Virus record (IMG/VR): IMGVR_UViG_3300030098_006570
Location: 84,085-148,084 of that record
DNA from: a virus
Strand: one strand, 5' to 3'
DNA: 64,000 nt
Shown here in pieces: positions 30,815-34,544 of the stretch (its first letter is position 1; each line of letters begins with the position of its first letter). A program made the translations under genes and the position numbers. The notes beneath the pieces were generated by a model. The model was not told where the DNA came from. It saw nothing but the letters and a program-made list of their open reading frames with translations, and did not search any database.

Positions 30815-31333
30815 TTAGTTGAAAAAACCAGTTTTGTGATAAACTGTGCCGGAAACTCTTATAGATTCTCCCTCCGGAGGTGGTATATAGATGGTGAGAG
30901 CCTGATGATCTTTGTCTGGTGGGCGCCATATTATCTGCAGAGCGTTAGATTCTGGCGCCCATATCGAATCGAACTCGTTGCCGATATTATTTTCATAGTG
31001 ATTGTAACAATTATAATTATTATTAGTAAGACTCGCGATTAAAGTATCATGCAAGTCATAACCTGAATTAAGGATTACATCCCTGCCACAGATGGAAAAG
31101 AATTGCTCTTCCTCTGTGTCTCTTTCAATAGCTAGGCTGACGAATCCAGATAGCAGTGGAGTGTCGAGTTGCTTATCGCACCAAAAGACCAATGTACTGG
31201 GGCCTTCATTTTTACTCCACCAGCAGTCCATGATTGCATATTCTTCACCGTATTCTTGAATTCTAATCTCCTCTTCCCCTATATTAGAGCAAGAACAAAG
31301 TAGAAGTAGTAAGCAAATTACAATCTTATTCAC
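30815..31333 (-). CDS. Putative lipoprotein
   Basis: Lipobox-like LLLCSC after a short basic-hydrophobic signal. Confidence 0.6.
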   Translation of the reverse strand: MNKIVICLLLLLCSCSNIGEEEIRIQEYGEEYAIMDCWWSKNEGPSTLVFWCDKQLDTPLLSGFVSLAIERDTEEEQFFSICGRDVILNSGYDLHDTLIASLTNNNYNCYNHYENNIGNEFDSIWAPESNALQIIWRPPDKDHQALTIYIPPPEGESIRVSGTVYHKTGFFN

Positions 31334-31392
31334 CTTATATTAATTATAATATAATAAAGTTATTTGTAAGATGCAAGCAAAAAGTATATTAT

Positions 31393-31475
31393 TGGTGGAG
31401 GTGCACGGAGTCGAACCGTGGTCCTGAGAATGCCATTGCAGGATTTAATCTCAGTCGAATTCCCAAACCACCCCC
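31393..31475 (-). ncRNA. Mini-tmRNA: tRNA-like domain only, no tag reading frame
   Basis: 5' GGGGGTG-GTTTGGGAA-TTCGAC; TGAGA/TCTCA stem; GGAC-CACGG-TTCGACT-CCGTG-CACCTCC-ACCA 3'; G3:U70; 83 nt. Confidence 0.85.
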
Positions 31476-31506
31476 ATTTAGTCCTTGACAGGCCAAAATA
31501 ATTAGG

Positions 31507-31863
31507 TTACCATTGGTTTATGTCGTCTTTTTGTATCCTATACTTTTTCTTCAATACTTTTAAGGTCTCATCAGTGACTCCTAAAATTCTCGTCATTTCT
31601 TTATTTGTGTTAGCTATGCTAACAACAGAATTGAAGAGAGCTTCTTTCACGAGAGCCACCGTATTGGACCATAGGTTAAAACCATATAGTTTGCCATTAG
31701 TTAGACGACTGGCGCACTCAAGTTTGAGACCAATAATTTCTTCCAGAGTTAATGCAGAAAGCATTATTTCAAATGCTTCATTTGACTTTCCGTGGTTCCT
31801 CAGCTTTTGTGAGAAAGAAATATCACTGCAAAAACCCTGGGAATCTGACTTCCGGGGTTTCAT
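31507..31863 (-). CDS. Hypothetical protein with possible Fis-like C-terminal HTH
   Basis: NTNKEMTRILGVTDETLKVLKKKY. Confidence 0.5.
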   Translation of the reverse strand: MKPRKSDSQGFCSDISFSQKLRNHGKSNEAFEIMLSALTLEEIIGLKLECASRLTNGKLYGFNLWSNTVALVKEALFNSVVSIANTNKEMTRILGVTDETLKVLKKKYRIQKDDINQW

Positions 31864-32676
31864 CTATAATAAGTTTTCGATAATATCGTCTATATCTAGA
31901 AAATTAGCTATTTCTTGTAGCTCAATGTTGGCAACGGTATCTTCTTCCGCCTCTTCGGCACTGGCGTCACCCACCGCGGCCGCCGCTGCAGCGGGTTCGG
32001 GCACATCTGTCTGCAGTTCTGTCTCGAATTTGTCAAAATACAGCGCAAGATTTTTTAGTAGATACTCCTCAAACATAGCAATATCGTCGGCGTTGTCAAG
32101 GTCATCATATGCTGTAAGAATGCTCTTCTCGATGTCTTGGAAGTCGGTGAATGCGCGGTTGCGTCCAGTCTTATCTTCCCCATTAAGCCCAAACTCTGAC
32201 TTGGGATCGACTTCAACCTCTTCTTCGTCATCGATACTAATAAAATCCGGATCATCTTCGGGCCGGTCGCCAATATCAATTTCAATATCTTCATCGATTG
32301 GGGCCCCGAGTTCCTCGTCTTCCCCCGCCTCTTTGCGAGATTCTTCGGGGGCAAGTGATTTTTCGACAGCAGCTAAAATATGGTTACGATATGATTCACG
32401 CTGCTCCACCGCGGTGGTAAGGGACTTATATCCGGTCTCTATAGTTGACAAAACATTAGTGTTTCGTAGAAGGTCCTCTAGAGCATTGATTCCCGTACTG
32501 TCATGTTTGGCAACTGCTGCAACGGCAGCACTTTCAGTAATAAGGTCACGGATAATCTGGCGAAGTTCGTGCTCTTGGTTACTCTTATGCTCTCTGCGAG
32601 ATTTTACAATCCGAATCGCATCACGAACTGCTTCTCTCAATTGGATTTCCTGTGCTACTTCTGCTCGATCAATCAT
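31864..32676 (-). CDS. Acidic hypothetical protein, probably head-associated
   Basis: Late motif upstream; LRQIIRDLITE-type segment. Confidence 0.55.
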   Translation of the reverse strand: MIDRAEVAQEIQLREAVRDAIRIVKSRREHKSNQEHELRQIIRDLITESAAVAAVAKHDSTGINALEDLLRNTNVLSTIETGYKSLTTAVEQRESYRNHILAAVEKSLAPEESRKEAGEDEELGAPIDEDIEIDIGDRPEDDPDFISIDDEEEVEVDPKSEFGLNGEDKTGRNRAFTDFQDIEKSILTAYDDLDNADDIAMFEEYLLKNLALYFDKFETELQTDVPEPAAAAAAVGDASAEEAEEDTVANIELQEIANFLDIDDIIENLL

Positions 32677-32678
32677 TT

Positions 32679-34544
32679 TTATCCCACCGATATACCTAAT
32701 AAATAGTCCATTATTTCGTTTACAAACTGGTCTTCCACAGATTCATTGTTCGAAGTTTTTTTCTTTTTGCGCTTCTCAGATCCAATCACATCGGGGAAAG
32801 TAGTGGCAAACCCTGTCACCGCGCCTCCCGACTGCGCGCTCATTTCATCAAGCTGTTCGCCAAGTATCCTCATTATATCAGCTACATCGCTATCATTTAA
32901 CTCTGTAGGTAACCCGCGGATAAAGCCAACATCATCGTCATCACGAAGAGCTTTCCTCATCATGGTGGCACTTACTCCTCCCATCTGCGGAGGAATTGGG
33001 ACTTGCTGTACATTTACTCCTTCACGACGACCTTCGGCCGTCTTGAAGCGCCCACCTTCGACATCTTTTTCTCCCAAGATAAGGTGCAAGTCTTCCCCGA
33101 CGTCGGCTTCGTTGTCAATGTATTCATAGACAGAACGCACAGGCGTCACATCTGCAACTCTAACATCTACATCACCAGGCAAGTGTTGGCGGTAAACGTT
33201 CCAAATATTGACGGCTTGTTGAGGAGTAATTCCTTCATGAACTTTTGGAGAGACAAATATAATGATCTTATCCACTCCGGGGTTACTTAGCACCGATTTA
33301 GCAACATTGAAGTGGCCGCCATGAGGTGGCTTAAACTTTCCAGGGTAAAGAGCAATGTTACGCACCCCCTCGACGGGTACCCTCTCTTCTTCAGCTAGGC
33401 CCTGCTTGGAACGATCTCCATGGGTAGAGGCCAGCCCTTGAACAATAAAATCTCCTGTAAGTTTGACTAGGAAATCTTCCATCCCTCGTAAAACAACACC
33501 TTCATGGGATCCAACTGGACCAGCCATACTGCGCAAAGCTTCTTTTACCGCTTGCCCTAGGAGTCGAGTGCCATGATAAAAAATACCTCCATTGATGGCG
33601 TCTTTGACGTCTTCTTTGGAGGCAAGATATTCACTTAAAGGTATTCCATTTTTCTCGGCGCTGCGTAATACTGCCATATAAATATCTTTACTTAGTGCTC
33701 CCACGGATTTCCCATCAGCCCGGGTAACACGAGTATCTTGGGGGTGCTCTACCATCTGGAGCCATTCTCGTAATGTGTTTGTGGCCACCCCGCCAGGAGT
33801 AACCTGAACGGACACTGGCGTCTCTAAAACTTCTTCTAGATTCAGATCATAATCCGGATCAAACTCCACTGGTACATCACCATATACTTCAAAACCATAT
33901 TTGGCTGCAATGGGGCGCACTTTTTCAATAAGTCGTGCTAGGGCTGCGTGATCATAAGGAATTTCGATTCCACCACCTTTGACGGGCTTTCTCGTCTTGG
34001 GGTCTATAGGGCGCTCAAGCCCTGGGCGATCCATGGAAATCCCTTTTCGAATCATATGGGGCTGGGCTTTTTTTTCATAGAACTGGTTGATGCCATGAAT
34101 AGCCAAAATATTGGAATCATATTCCTGGACGTTAGACTTCCCTTCAATATATTCGGTATTGAAATATTTTGTAGGGTCATCCCACATTTTGAGCGCTTTA
34201 AGTTCCGGAGTGATGGCTGGAATAGCCGCATTGAAAATAGTTAACAACTTAGCTATAGCATTAGCCATGCCATGATCGGATCCCCACTTTGCTAAAGCAC
34301 TTTCAGCATCAAAGCCCTCAATTGAGGCAATATGAGAGGTTCCGCGATCCATGCGAAACTCTTTTTGACCATCCTCGTTGGTAATCAGCTTAAAACTGGT
34401 ATTGATGCCATCCCACTTGACGCTGCCGGCAATTTCATTGTTTTGAAGACGCACAACAGCGTCCTGGATATAATCAATGAGGTCTTGCCCTGTTTTTACG
34501 CGGTCGACATCAAAAGGGTGCGCCATATGGCCCGGTGTGCCCAT
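32679..34544 (-). CDS. Phage conserved domain (SVKWDG) fused to HxGH cytidylyltransferase-like domain
   Basis: HMAHPFD, SVKWDG, HEGVV; C-terminal YPGKFKPPHGGH and VSATMMRKAL. Confidence 0.7.
   Translation of the reverse strand: MGTPGHMAHPFDVDRVKTGQDLIDYIQDAVVRLQNNEIAGSVKWDGINTSFKLITNEDGQKEFRMDRGTSHIASIEGFDAESALAKWGSDHGMANAIAKLLTIFNAAIPAITPELKALKMWDDPTKYFNTEYIEGKSNVQEYDSNILAIHGINQFYEKKAQPHMIRKGISMDRPGLERPIDPKTRKPVKGGGIEIPYDHAALARLIEKVRPIAAKYGFEVYGDVPVEFDPDYDLNLEEVLETPVSVQVTPGGVATNTLREWLQMVEHPQDTRVTRADGKSVGALSKDIYMAVLRSAEKNGIPLSEYLASKEDVKDAINGGIFYHGTRLLGQAVKEALRSMAGPVGSHEGVVLRGMEDFLVKLTGDFIVQGLASTHGDRSKQGLAEEERVPVEGVRNIALYPGKFKPPHGGHFNVAKSVLSNPGVDKIIIFVSPKVHEGITPQQAVNIWNVYRQHLPGDVDVRVADVTPVRSVYEYIDNEADVGEDLHLILGEKDVEGGRFKTAEGRREGVNVQQVPIPPQMGGVSATMMRKALRDDDDVGFIRGLPTELNDSDVADIMRILGEQLDEMSAQSGGAVTGFATTFPDVIGSEKRKKKKTSNNESVEDQFVNEIMDYLLGISVG

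What the first reader, a model, noticed from the sequence alone, without database searches (positions are those of the whole stretch)
31393..31475. 83-nt tmRNA tRNA-like domain without the mRNA part
Seen: acceptor GGGGGTG/CACCTCC with G3:U70, discriminator A and CCA. It has an unpaired D-loop ending in TTCGAC, the GAC linker and a T arm. Helix 2 (TGAGA/TCTCA) closes a 19-nt insert in place of ~270 nt of pseudoknots and tag ORF. A late-type motif lies ~24 nt upstream. Known: these are the AlaRS and SmpB determinants of tmRNA, and TLD-only variants are rare. Inference: an SmpB decoy that blocks trans-translation tagging, or a tag-free ribosome rescue RNA.
Basis: partly seen in the sequence, partly recalled or inferred. 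Interest (0 to 1): 0.8.

Follow-up and report, generated by a model that had tools for sequence, protein, structure and literature searches.

The report
Phage tag-less mini-tmRNA gene
This 148-kb uncultured phage carries a conserved 83-base gene for only the alanine-accepting, tRNA-like end of the bacterial ribosome-rescue RNA (tmRNA); sister phages keep a full, tag-encoding tmRNA at the same spot, and one such short RNA was already published from mycobacteriophage DS6A.

Summary
Window 31393-31475 (- strand) is a complete tmRNA tRNA-like domain (TLD). It scores 54.6 bits on Rfam RF00023 (cut-off 47), with 308 central model positions replaced by a short insert. There is no tag reading frame, no pseudoknot, no second piece and no smpB in the 148-kb phage record.

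It is a functional gene, not debris. It is 86-99% identical among ten related phages whose flanking genes are only 63-75% identical. A strict pattern finds 92 loci (70 distinct sequences) of the same 65-90-nt form in IMG/VR. Every free acceptor and T-stem position pairs in all 70. A model built without this clade scores the window at 72 bits and the published DS6A TLD-only RNA at 56 bits.

In 37 of 50 sister-phage records a full-length tmRNA with an ANDxxYxLAA-type tag is present; in the six loci examined it sits in the same slot.

The most likely mechanism is inferred, not shown. The RNA is charged with alanine, binds host SmpB and EF-Tu, and competes with tagging tmRNA at stalled ribosomes.

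It is a new member of a known kind. This scan has noted the kind before on other DNA (153 notes, at least 131 genomes).

The parts
31393..31475 (-). Mini-tmRNA gene (TLD-only), 83 nt including the encoded ACCA
   Evidence: RF00023 54.6 bits, E 1.1e-18. Independent mini model R1 72.1 bits. 86-99% identical in ten related phages.
31469..31475 (-). Acceptor stem 5' strand GGGGGUG (RNA positions 1-7), with G3 of the G3:U70 pair
   Evidence: Pairs with 31397-31403. Acceptor positions 5-7 pair in 70/70 family members with compensatory changes.
31457..31468 (-). Unpaired D region GUUUGGGAAUUC (RNA 8-19), with the conserved GG
   Evidence: Aligned to the tmRNA D-loop consensus. The GG is nearly invariant in alignment A1.
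31449..31456 (-). GAC plus the helix 2a 5' strand UGAGA (RNA 20-27)
   Evidence: GAC/GGA is paired in the Rfam model. All six helix 2a pairs show changes on both sides in alignment A2.
31430..31448 (-). 19-nt cap in place of about 300 nt of pseudoknots and tag ORF: A-rich loop UUAAAU, a short CC/GG stem with a GCAA-containing loop, then CAU
   Evidence: It resembles the E. coli ssrA 2a/2b junction GCGAAACC...GGACGU. Statistical support for the inner stem is only modest: 77% against 58% of shuffles.
31421..31429 (-). Helix 2a 3' strand UCUCA plus the GGAC linker (RNA 47-55)
31404..31420 (-). T arm CACGG-UUCGACU-CCGUG (RNA 56-72)
   Evidence: T-stem positions 1-3 pair in 70/70 with all four Watson-Crick pair types.
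31393..31403 (-). Acceptor 3' strand CACCUCC (with U70), discriminator A73 and encoded CCA
31485..31490 (.). Conserved hexamer 10-15 nt 5' of the RNA: TGTCAA on the RNA's strand, TTGACA on the + strand. Function unknown.
   Evidence: Present in 11/11 clade members and upstream of the full-length tmRNAs of the closest sister phages. The + strand scan calls TTGACA-17-TACCAT.
31507..31863 (-). Conserved 118-aa gene directly upstream on the same strand. It ends 31 nt before the RNA, so it is the likely source of a read-through precursor.
   Evidence: Synteny in 9 clade loci and in sister phages. No family match.
30815..31333 (-). Downstream 172-aa protein, judged lipoprotein-like by eye from its N-terminal LLLLLCSC; it has its own sigma-70-like and TACAAATA motifs

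Best explanation
This is a functional phage gene for a TLD-only ('mini') tmRNA. It is probably cut out of a read-through transcript in the way tRNAs are processed. It keeps every element that lets tmRNA be charged with alanine (G3:U70, A73, CCA). It also keeps the elements for delivery by EF-Tu (the stacked acceptor and T stems) and for binding SmpB (D-loop GG, UUCGAC, the tandem G.A pairs and helix 2a). It has no resume codon, tag frame, stop codon or pseudoknot. Using the host's SmpB, AlaRS and EF-Tu, it would compete with tag-encoding tmRNA for non-stop ribosomes. The nascent chain would then receive alanine, possibly several, instead of the SsrA degradation tag, and the final release would be left to other factors. 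The net effect is tag-free handling of stalled ribosomes and reduced SsrA tagging during infection. What is shown here: identity, structure, selection, absence of a coding part, and orthology to a full-length phage tmRNA. What is inferred: charging, SmpB binding, ribosome entry and the benefit to the phage. I put about 0.95 on the gene's identity; the 0.55 given here is for the mechanism.
For: Identity: RF00023 54.6 bits and independent model R1 72.1 bits, which also hits the DS6A TLD-only RNA full-length at 56.1 bits. Selection: 86-99% identity against 63-75% for the flanking genes. In alignment A2, 96.7% of cells are paired against 70.5% in shuffles and about 50% in slid controls, with 97 cells changed on both sides against 27. 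All free acceptor and T-stem positions pair in 70/70 sequences. Charging appears to be selected: when positions 3 and 70 were left free in the scan, no properly paired mini with a non-G:U pair appeared. No coding part or partner: 15-19 nt replace 308 model positions; no other Rfam family in the rest of the genome; no SmpB in this record or in 24 other mini-bearing records, 7 of them at least 90% complete. Discrete class: 91 loci have inserts of 20-50 nt, 1 has 51-81 nt, and more than 230 have 270-331 nt. Orthology: 37 of 50 sister records have a full-length tmRNA of 306-466 nt. In the six loci examined it follows the 118-aa gene homolog, and in the two where a downstream match was found the lipoprotein-like gene comes next. 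Tags include ANDADYGLALAA. Literature: a TLD-only RNA strongly inhibits tmRNA in E. coli whether or not it is chargeable (Mao 2009, as cited in PMC4131195, and PMC11915505). A TLD fragment plus SmpB drives template-free polyalanine synthesis in vitro (Shimizu and Ueda 2006, as cited in PMC3929946).
Against: No promoter was identified on its strand. Without a stop codon the RNA cannot complete a rescue on its own, and the phages carry no ArfB/RF-1-domain protein or peptidyl-tRNA hydrolase. The ancestors appear to have carried a tagging tmRNA, so a switch to blocking tagging would reverse that function. In E. coli, inhibition did not need charging, so the conserved G3:U70 is only indirect support for ribosome entry. 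The host is unknown.
Confidence: 0.55

Rival explanations
1. Pure SmpB sponge. The RNA only titrates host SmpB (and perhaps AlaRS) away from host tmRNA and never acts on the ribosome. Charging would be irrelevant.
For: An E. coli TLD-only RNA inhibited tmRNA whether or not it was chargeable, 'perhaps acting by titrating SmpB' (PMC4131195). No phage SmpB is present.
Against: G3:U70 is kept in every bona fide family member. A73 and CCA were fixed by the search pattern, so they carry no weight. Other acceptor pairs vary freely with compensation. A sponge would not need the alanine identity pair.
Confidence: 0.15
2. Self-sufficient tag-free rescue RNA. It keeps what mattered to the phage in the ancestral full-length tmRNA, namely freeing ribosomes, and simply drops the tag. 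Release would occur by drop-off or by host factors.
For: It occupies the same slot as a full-length tmRNA in sister phages. It is under strong purifying selection. CDS-less tmRNAs are also reported from plastids (PMC11915505), and TLD-only forms are known from jakobid mitochondria (my own knowledge).
Against: There is no stop codon or other known release signal. No phage-encoded release factor or peptidyl-tRNA hydrolase is present. The only in vivo test cited showed inhibition, not rescue.
Confidence: 0.15
3. Decaying remnant of the full-length phage tmRNA, or an attP-type fragment of a host ssrA gene, with no function of its own.
For: Sister phages have the full gene in this slot. tmRNA genes are common integration sites (PMC4131195).
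Against: It is far more conserved than the neighbouring genes. Compensatory changes occur within and between clades. Insert lengths are bimodal, with almost nothing between 50 and 270 nt. Both halves of the TLD are present, whereas an attP site holds only the 3' end. Only 1 of 25 mini-bearing records has an integrase, and this one has none.
Confidence: 0.04
4. Alanyl-RNA used off the ribosome, or a decoy for a host nuclease or defence system that targets tRNA or tmRNA.
For: 20 of 92 minis lie within 1.5 kb of tRNA genes, several inside tRNA arrays. That is where decoy or replacement tRNAs might also be expected (my inference).
Against: No transferase or defence-related partner gene is conserved beside the minis across clades. 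All conserved features are those of the SmpB/EF-Tu/AlaRS interface.
Confidence: 0.06
5. One half of a two-piece tmRNA, or an unusual tRNA.
For: Marine phages often carry permuted two-piece tmRNAs (PMC9004378).
Against: The gene order is not permuted: the 5' acceptor strand comes first and the CCA end last, within one 83-nt unit. No permuted tmRNA family and no second hit occurs in the whole record. ARAGORN finds no tRNA, and there is no anticodon arm or D stem.
Confidence: 0.02

Closest known systems
TLD-only (CDS-less) tmRNA of Mycobacterium phage DS6A (JN698994, 28478-28560; Hudson, Lau & Williams 2014, PMC4131195; Mao et al. 2009; PMC11915505)
   Same: Same size (83 nt) and the same plan. 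Both have a 7-bp acceptor with G3:U70, an unpaired D region, GAC plus a 5-bp helix 2a, an A-rich loop and a short capped stem, then the T arm. The same model R1 matches both full-length. Neither is annotated or found by ARAGORN.
   Different: DS6A is a 60-kb temperate-type actinophage, and its RNA lacks an encoded CCA and has GGTCGAC instead of TTCGAC. It scores below the Rfam cut-off (43.2 bits), whereas the window RNA passes (54.6). The window RNA is in a T4-like myovirus and replaces a full-length tmRNA found in sister phages.
Full-length one-piece phage tmRNA of sister phages (for example L364 3771-4082 and L356 3717-4032)
   Same: Same genomic slot after the 118-aa gene homolog, with the lipoprotein-like gene next where it was matched. 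Same upstream TGTCAA box and same TLD features.
   Different: These are 306-466 nt with pseudoknots and a tag frame (ANDADYGLALAA and others) ending in a stop codon. The window RNA has 19 nt in that place.
Standard bacterial tmRNA (SsrA, Rfam RF00023), for example E. coli ssrA
   Same: TLD consensus, including the 2a/2b junction (GAAA on the 5' side, AC on the 3' side).
   Different: The window RNA has no mRNA-like domain and no PK1-PK4. The partner smpB sits next to ssrA in E. coli but is absent from the phage.
Engineered TLD fragments used in structural and in vitro work (T. thermophilus 5' 25 nt plus 3' 34 nt joined by UUCG, PDB 2CZJ; Shimizu and Ueda 2006), as described in PMC3929946
   Same: The same truncation idea. 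The shortest natural minis (66-69 nt, e.g. L037) even cap helix 2a with UUCG. These fragments bind SmpB and support SmpB-dependent polyalanine synthesis in vitro.
   Different: They are laboratory constructs. The window RNA keeps a longer arm, with the A-rich loop and a second short stem.
CDS-less organellar tmRNAs (jakobid mitochondrial mt-tmRNA, Rfam RF02544; about 65-nt plastid forms in Mallomonadaceae, PMC11915505)
   Same: They consist of the TLD only and are presumed to work with SmpB and without a tag.
   Different: They are organellar and AT-rich with reduced features. No direct comparison was made here, because Rfam clan competition hides lower-scoring overlapping hits.

Membership tests
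tmRNA (Rfam RF00023): tRNA-like domain | Score at or above the family gathering threshold (47 bits) | tested here: met
   54.6 bits, E 1.1e-18, model positions 1-374.
tmRNA (Rfam RF00023): tRNA-like domain | 7-bp acceptor stem with G3:U70, discriminator A73 and 3' CCA | tested here: met
   GGGGGUG/CACCUCC followed by ACCA.
tmRNA (Rfam RF00023): tRNA-like domain | D region without a stem, conserved GG and UUCGAC, tandem G.A pairs leading into helix 2a, and a T arm with GGUUCGAnUCC | tested here: met
   cmscan alignment and covariation in relatives.
Functional tagging tmRNA (trans-translation) | mRNA-like domain with a resume codon, tag reading frame and stop codon | tested here: not met
   Only 19 nt lie between the helix 2a strands. 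ARAGORN finds no tag.
Functional tagging tmRNA (trans-translation) | Pseudoknots PK1-PK4 and the long helix 2 | tested here: not met
   308 model positions are deleted.
Functional tagging tmRNA (trans-translation) | Alanylation by AlaRS and binding to SmpB and EF-Tu | not testable with these tools
   All sequence determinants are present.
TLD-only phage mini-tmRNA (DS6A type) | Complete TLD with the central part reduced to a capped helix 2 of 50 nt or less, and no tag frame | tested here: met
   Insert lengths are bimodal.
TLD-only phage mini-tmRNA (DS6A type) | Matches a covariance model of the class built without it, and that model also recognises DS6A | tested here: met
   R1 scores the window at 72.1 bits and DS6A at 56.1 bits. 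The E. coli ssrA 3' end scores 25.5 and tRNAs at most 17.5.
TLD-only phage mini-tmRNA (DS6A type) | Carried by a phage that has no smpB and no full-length tmRNA | tested here: met
   The same holds for 24 other records.
Two-piece (permuted) tmRNA | Permuted gene order with a separate coding piece (RF01849-51, RF04321) | tested here: not met
   The order is standard. No permuted family is hit in the window or in the other 80 kb.
tRNA (RF00005) | Cloverleaf with a D stem and an anticodon arm | tested here: not met
   ARAGORN makes no call. The best clan member is tmRNA. No anticodon arm is present.
attP / ssrA integration-site fragment | Only the 3' end of ssrA, next to an integrase | tested here: not met
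   Both TLD halves are present. There is no integrase in this record, and 1 of 25 mini-bearing records has one, 12 kb from its mini.

The most novel reading that the evidence does not exclude
Within one lineage of T4-like phages the same locus holds either a full, tag-encoding tmRNA or a conserved TLD-only RNA. The most novel reading still open is this. The mini is not an inhibitor but a working, tag-free rescue device, or an alanine-tailing one (Ala-TLD plus host SmpB adding one or more alanines without a template). Phage tmRNAs in general would then be selected for handling stalled ribosomes rather than for marking proteins for proteolysis. That would give a natural, genetically tractable pair for asking what the tag is for.
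Probability: 0.25. Interest if true: 0.75.

Novelty: new member of a known kind. Interest (0 to 1): 0.5.

Why it matters
TLD-only tmRNA is published for a single phage (DS6A), and its only functional test was a look-alike expressed in E. coli. Here the same form is shown to be a conserved gene in a different phage lineage. It belongs to a discrete and widespread class that the tested tmRNA finder misses or mis-annotates as a full tmRNA with a bogus tag. Within this lineage it is the alternative state of a locus that otherwise holds a tagging tmRNA. That pairing makes a clean experiment possible: swap the mini and full-length genes between sister phages and ask whether phages gain from blocking the host's tagging or from tag-free ribosome rescue. 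It also shows how small a natural SmpB- and AlaRS-competent RNA can be. For annotation, 'phage tmRNA' calls made by ARAGORN need checking.

Tried and rejected
- BLAST of the locus (5 kb, megablast) and of the 83-nt RNA (blastn) against 50,697 phage records gave no match. No cultured close relative was found, and the nearest capsids are only about 35-44% identical.
- Flavobacterium phage immuto, Rhodothermus phage RM378 and Microcystis phage Mel-JY01 have no tmRNA-like gene.
- The single-sequence fold gave z = -0.65, which is uninformative.
- MAFFT alignment A1 of all 70 minis mis-registers the 5' ends, so a seed with one D-loop length (A2) was used instead.
- Neighbour-gene clustering across 92 loci found no translation-related partner shared between clades. 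It found only lineage-specific synteny: DnaB, SNF2 helicase, DUF3310 and a phosphoesterase.
- The three conserved upstream proteins and the downstream proteins gave no convincing family. There is only a weak nucleotidyltransferase signal in the 621-aa protein.
- The long + strand ORF 31520-32803 (427 aa), which faces the opposite-strand TTGACA promoter-like site, was judged a shadow frame of the two conserved - strand genes. Its length and start vary among relatives, its composition is low in complexity, and its third codon positions coincide with theirs.
- The paper Mao et al. 2009 is not held, so it is cited only through PMC4131195 and PMC11915505.
- The host could not be determined. The tag type of the sister phages, the TTGACA-type promoters and the Shine-Dalgarno sites only hint at a proteobacterial host (my inference).

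Full report
**1. What is there**

On the - strand, 31475->31393 reads as follows:
- GGGGGUG, the acceptor 5' strand
- GUUUGGGAAUUC, an unpaired D region
- GAC
- UGAGA, helix 2a
- UUAAAUCCUGCAAUGGCAU, 19 nt
- UCUCA
- GGAC
- CACGG-UUCGACU-CCGUG, the T arm
- CACCUCC, the acceptor 3' strand with U70 opposite G3
- A, then CCA

cmscan against all of Rfam places RF00023 (tmRNA) on exactly these 83 bases. The score is 54.6 bits against a gathering score of 47, E 1.1e-18. Both ends of the model are matched and 308 central positions are replaced by 15 unaligned bases. ARAGORN calls nothing here, although it finds tRNA-Asn and tRNA-Thr 3-4 kb away. The fold energy of the single sequence is unremarkable (z = -0.65), so the case rests on homology and comparative evidence.

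**2. Where it is**

The window is the last 64 kb of a 148,084-bp IMG/VR virus record, estimated 82% complete. The record encodes a tail sheath, a gp23-type major head protein and a portal. Its capsid protein is only 35-44% identical to those of Flavobacterium phage immuto, Rhodothermus phage RM378 and Microcystis phage Mel-JY01. It is therefore a distant T4-like myovirus with no cultured close relative. The record holds:
- no SmpB;
- no second RF00023 hit;
- no other Rfam family in the remaining 80 kb, including the permuted tmRNA families;
- no tyrosine integrase.

**3. It is a gene under selection**

Ten IMG/VR contigs carry the same gene order: a protein of about 590 aa, one of 270 aa, one of 118 aa, the RNA, and then a lipoprotein-like gene, with or without a 103-aa gene in between. 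Across them the RNA is 86-99% identical to the window's copy. The 118-aa and 270-aa genes are only 63-75% identical at the DNA level, and the 31-nt spacer is 58-76% identical. Within this clade the T stem changes from CACGG/CCGUG to CGCGG/CCGCG, and the first helix 2a pair changes from U-A to G-C. Both changes are compensatory.

**4. It belongs to a large, discrete class**

A strict pattern was scanned over IMG/VR: GGGG, 9-17 nt, TTCGAC, 20-50 nt, GGTTCGANTCC, 6 nt, CTCCACCA. It found 91 stretches, giving 92 loci and 70 distinct sequences of 66-90 nt once the window is included. The positions the pattern leaves free pair in 70 of 70 sequences, using all four Watson-Crick pair types. These are acceptor pairs 5-7 and T-stem pairs 1-3. 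Helix 2a is always present but differs in sequence.

On a 19-sequence alignment (A2):
- 96.7% of cells are paired, against 70.5% in shuffles and about 50% when partners are slid;
- 97 cells are changed on both sides, against 27 in shuffles.

A covariance model (R1) was built from those 19 sequences, none from the window's clade. It scores:
- the window RNA at 72.1 bits (E 3.6e-14);
- the DS6A RNA at 56.1 bits;
- the 3' end of E. coli ssrA at 25.5 bits;
- the window's tRNAs at 17.5 bits or less.

Twenty-four of these minis were re-scored on their whole records, and all pass the Rfam cut-off at 51-76 bits.

The class is discrete. With the same flanking motifs, inserts of 20-50 nt give 91 loci and inserts of 51-81 nt give 1. 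The class is also phage-enriched: the same pattern finds only 8 stretches in one genome each of 185,579 prokaryotic species. One of those is a phage contig in a Prochlorococcus single-cell assembly.

**5. Anatomy compared with full tmRNA**

In E. coli ssrA, helix 2a (GACGGGAUUUGC) is followed by GA-AACC...; on the 3' side ...GGACGU precedes AGGAAUUUCGGAC. Most minis, DS6A included, keep this junction: an A-rich 5' loop ((U/G)AAA), a 2-4-bp stem (CC/GG, GCC/GGC, CCC/GGG and others), a 4-6-nt cap and a short 3' bulge. In the window's clade the cap contains GCAA. The shortest minis (66-69 nt) cap helix 2a directly with CUCG or UUCG. That is the design of the crystallised Thermus TLD fragment (PMC3929946). 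The inner stem is only weakly supported statistically: 77% of sequences have at least 3 bp, against 58% of shuffles. I treat it as homology-based.

**6. Charging seems to matter**

The scan was repeated with positions 3 and 70 left free, and the count rose only from 91 to 95. One of the four new loci (L349) still has G3:U70. The other three lack a 5' strand that pairs at all. So no properly paired mini has replaced the wobble pair, although neighbouring pairs vary freely. The limits of this test are that A73, CCA and the flanking G-C pairs were fixed by the pattern.

**7. No partner genes**

In the 24 other mini-bearing records searched whole (7 at least 90% complete), none has SmpB or a full-length tmRNA. 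In those 24 plus the window's own record:
- none has an RF-1/ArfB-domain protein;
- none has a peptidyl-tRNA hydrolase;
- one has an integrase, 12 kb from its mini.

Neighbour clustering shows only lineage-specific synteny, with replication genes. Twenty of the 92 minis lie within 1.5 kb of tRNA genes, and several sit inside co-oriented tRNA arrays. This suggests tRNA-like transcription and processing.

**8. Sister phages hold a full tmRNA in the same slot**

Homologues of the 270-aa protein were found in 282 IMG/VR stretches. Of 50 such records without a mini, 37 carry a full-length tmRNA of 306-466 nt scoring 64-135 bits. I examined six of these loci. In each, the tmRNA follows the 118-aa gene homolog. 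In L356 and L364 it is followed by the lipoprotein-like gene, and in L364 by the 194-aa gene homolog as well. ARAGORN reads conventional tags in them: ANDADYGLALAA, ANDANYGLALAA, ANDSNYTSYALAA and ANDNVANYALAA. The closest of them share the TGTCAA box 10-17 nt upstream of the RNA. The mini is thus the orthologous replacement of a tagging tmRNA. The TLD sequences have diverged (different D loops and T stems), so this is not a recent deletion.

**9. What is already known**

- Hudson, Lau and Williams (2014) list mycobacteriophage DS6A as 'TLD only'. They note that a similar molecule, chargeable or not, strongly inhibits tmRNA, perhaps by titrating SmpB (Mao et al. 2009).
- The 2025 tmRNA database paper again names DS6A as the phage example and adds two plastid forms of about 65 nt.
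- I located the DS6A RNA at JN698994 28478-28560. It scores 43.2 bits on RF00023, below the cut-off, and is not annotated in the record.
- Surveys of phage tmRNAs relied on ARAGORN. On these 92 loci ARAGORN makes no call in 84. It calls six as full or permuted tmRNAs with unidentifiable tags that overlap the mini itself, and two as tRNA-Glu.
- I found no paper describing the class as widespread.
- This scan has noted it repeatedly on other DNA: 153 notes in at least 131 genomes.

**10. Mechanism**

The following are shown:
- a conserved, structured, TLD-only RNA gene that keeps all known sequence determinants for AlaRS, EF-Tu and SmpB;
- no coding capacity;
- dependence on host SmpB, if SmpB is used at all.

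The rest is inferred. The RNA is probably released from a read-through transcript of the upstream genes. The spacer is 31 nt, U precedes the first G, and the CCA is encoded. It would then be charged with alanine, bind SmpB and EF-Tu, and enter ribosomes with an empty A site in competition with host tmRNA. After peptidyl transfer there is no resume codon or stop codon. In vitro, TLD plus SmpB then supports repeated, template-free alanine addition. In the cell, release would need host factors or drop-off. The likely result is less SsrA tagging of proteins made during infection. Whether the benefit to the phage is protecting its proteins, keeping ribosomes cycling, or something else is open. The main rivals are a pure SmpB sponge and a self-sufficient tag-free rescue RNA, and G3:U70 mutants would separate them. 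The remnant, attP, two-piece and tRNA readings were tested and rejected (sections 2-4, 7).

**11.

No TATAAATA-like motif (up to 1 mismatch) lies upstream on the RNA's strand. TACAAATA at 31361-31368 (-) lies 25 nt past the CCA end, ahead of the next gene. What is conserved just 5' of the RNA is TGTCAA. On the opposite strand this reads TTGACA, followed after 17 nt by a -10-like hexamer that overlaps the stop codon of the 118-aa gene. Its role is unexplained.

**12. Verdict**

It is a new member of the DS6A-type TLD-only tmRNA kind rather than a new kind. Its interest comes from how widespread the class is, from its invisibility to the tested tmRNA finder, and from the mini/full-length alternation at one locus.

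Noticed in passing
window 31485-31513 (+); also L075, L034, L039, L061, L005, L025, L045, L030 directly 5' of their minis: A near-consensus sigma-70-type site on the strand opposite the RNA: TTGACA, 17 nt, then TACCAT/TATTCT/TATTAT. It is conserved in 11 of 11 clade members and points into the 3' end of the 118-aa gene. The -10-like hexamer overlaps that gene's Glu-stop codons, so part of the conservation may come from coding. It could be an antisense promoter or a signal read on the RNA's own strand (TGTCAA).
   Followed up: partly
window 31520-32803 (+): A 427-aa open frame antisense to the conserved 118-aa and 270-aa genes. It starts 6 nt after the -10-like hexamer. Its third codon positions coincide with those of the - strand genes, its length varies from 293 to 465 aa among relatives, and its composition is Ser/Leu/Phe-rich. 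I judged it a shadow frame.
   Followed up: partly
L004, L014, L081, L023, L068, L074, L022, L029: ARAGORN mis-annotates eight minis. Six are called full-length or permuted tmRNAs with a spurious 5' domain and 'Tag not identified' peptides that run through the mini itself. Two are called 91-nt tRNA-Glu. Published ARAGORN-based counts of phage tmRNAs may include such calls.
   Followed up: yes
L105 6915-6998, L110 7334-7417 (Nostoc), L106 7186-7269 (Cyanobacteria FACHB-471), L104 (Butyrivibrio MAG), L107 (Gemmatimonadota MAG): Mini-tmRNAs of 80-84 nt (R1 scores 64-79 bits) also occur on bacterial contigs. The three cyanobacterial ones lie in contigs of 105-312 kb. Whether they sit in prophages or belong to the chromosome was not examined.
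   Followed up: no
L346 and L348 (IMGVR_UViG_3300020050_011357 and _011453): A tmRNA-type 3' half (helix 2a strand, GGAC, T arm, CACCUCCACCA) and a TTCGAC box follow directly after the 3' end of a tRNA gene, with no 5' acceptor strand that could pair. This may be a different, possibly fused or permuted, arrangement.
   Followed up: no
G005:11049-11124, G011:67400-67475, G015:53298-53373, G009:76553-76628 (relatives of the window's phage): Sub-threshold RF00023 hits of 76 nt (30-33 bits) lie about 3-6 kb from the minis. They are probably tRNA genes with an alanine-type acceptor. They were not inspected.
   Followed up: no
window 32679-34544 (-): The conserved 621-aa protein three genes upstream has a weak HIGH-type nucleotidyl (adenylyl/cytidylyl) transferase signal at residues 393-441 (phrog_3041 E 4e-8; NCBIfam E 3e-5, far below cut-off). 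Its N-terminus contains KWDG, which resembles a ligase or capping-enzyme motif I. Function unknown.
   Followed up: partly
L356, L358, L362, L364, L352, L369, L370, L374, L380: Full-length tmRNAs of sister phages encode tags ending in LAA (ANDADYGLALAA, ANDSNYTSYALAA, ANDNVAFDYALAA, ANNNLHFEQRLAA). The ANDxxY..LAA type resembles proteobacterial tags (my own knowledge) and may hint at the host range of the group.
   Followed up: no
L113 10684-10809 (IMGVR_UViG_3300038621_000115): This is the only IMG/VR match with an intermediate insert (51-81 nt; 126 nt overall) under the same flanking motifs. It may belong to the 126-140-nt mini-tmRNA forms noted elsewhere in this scan.
   Followed up: no
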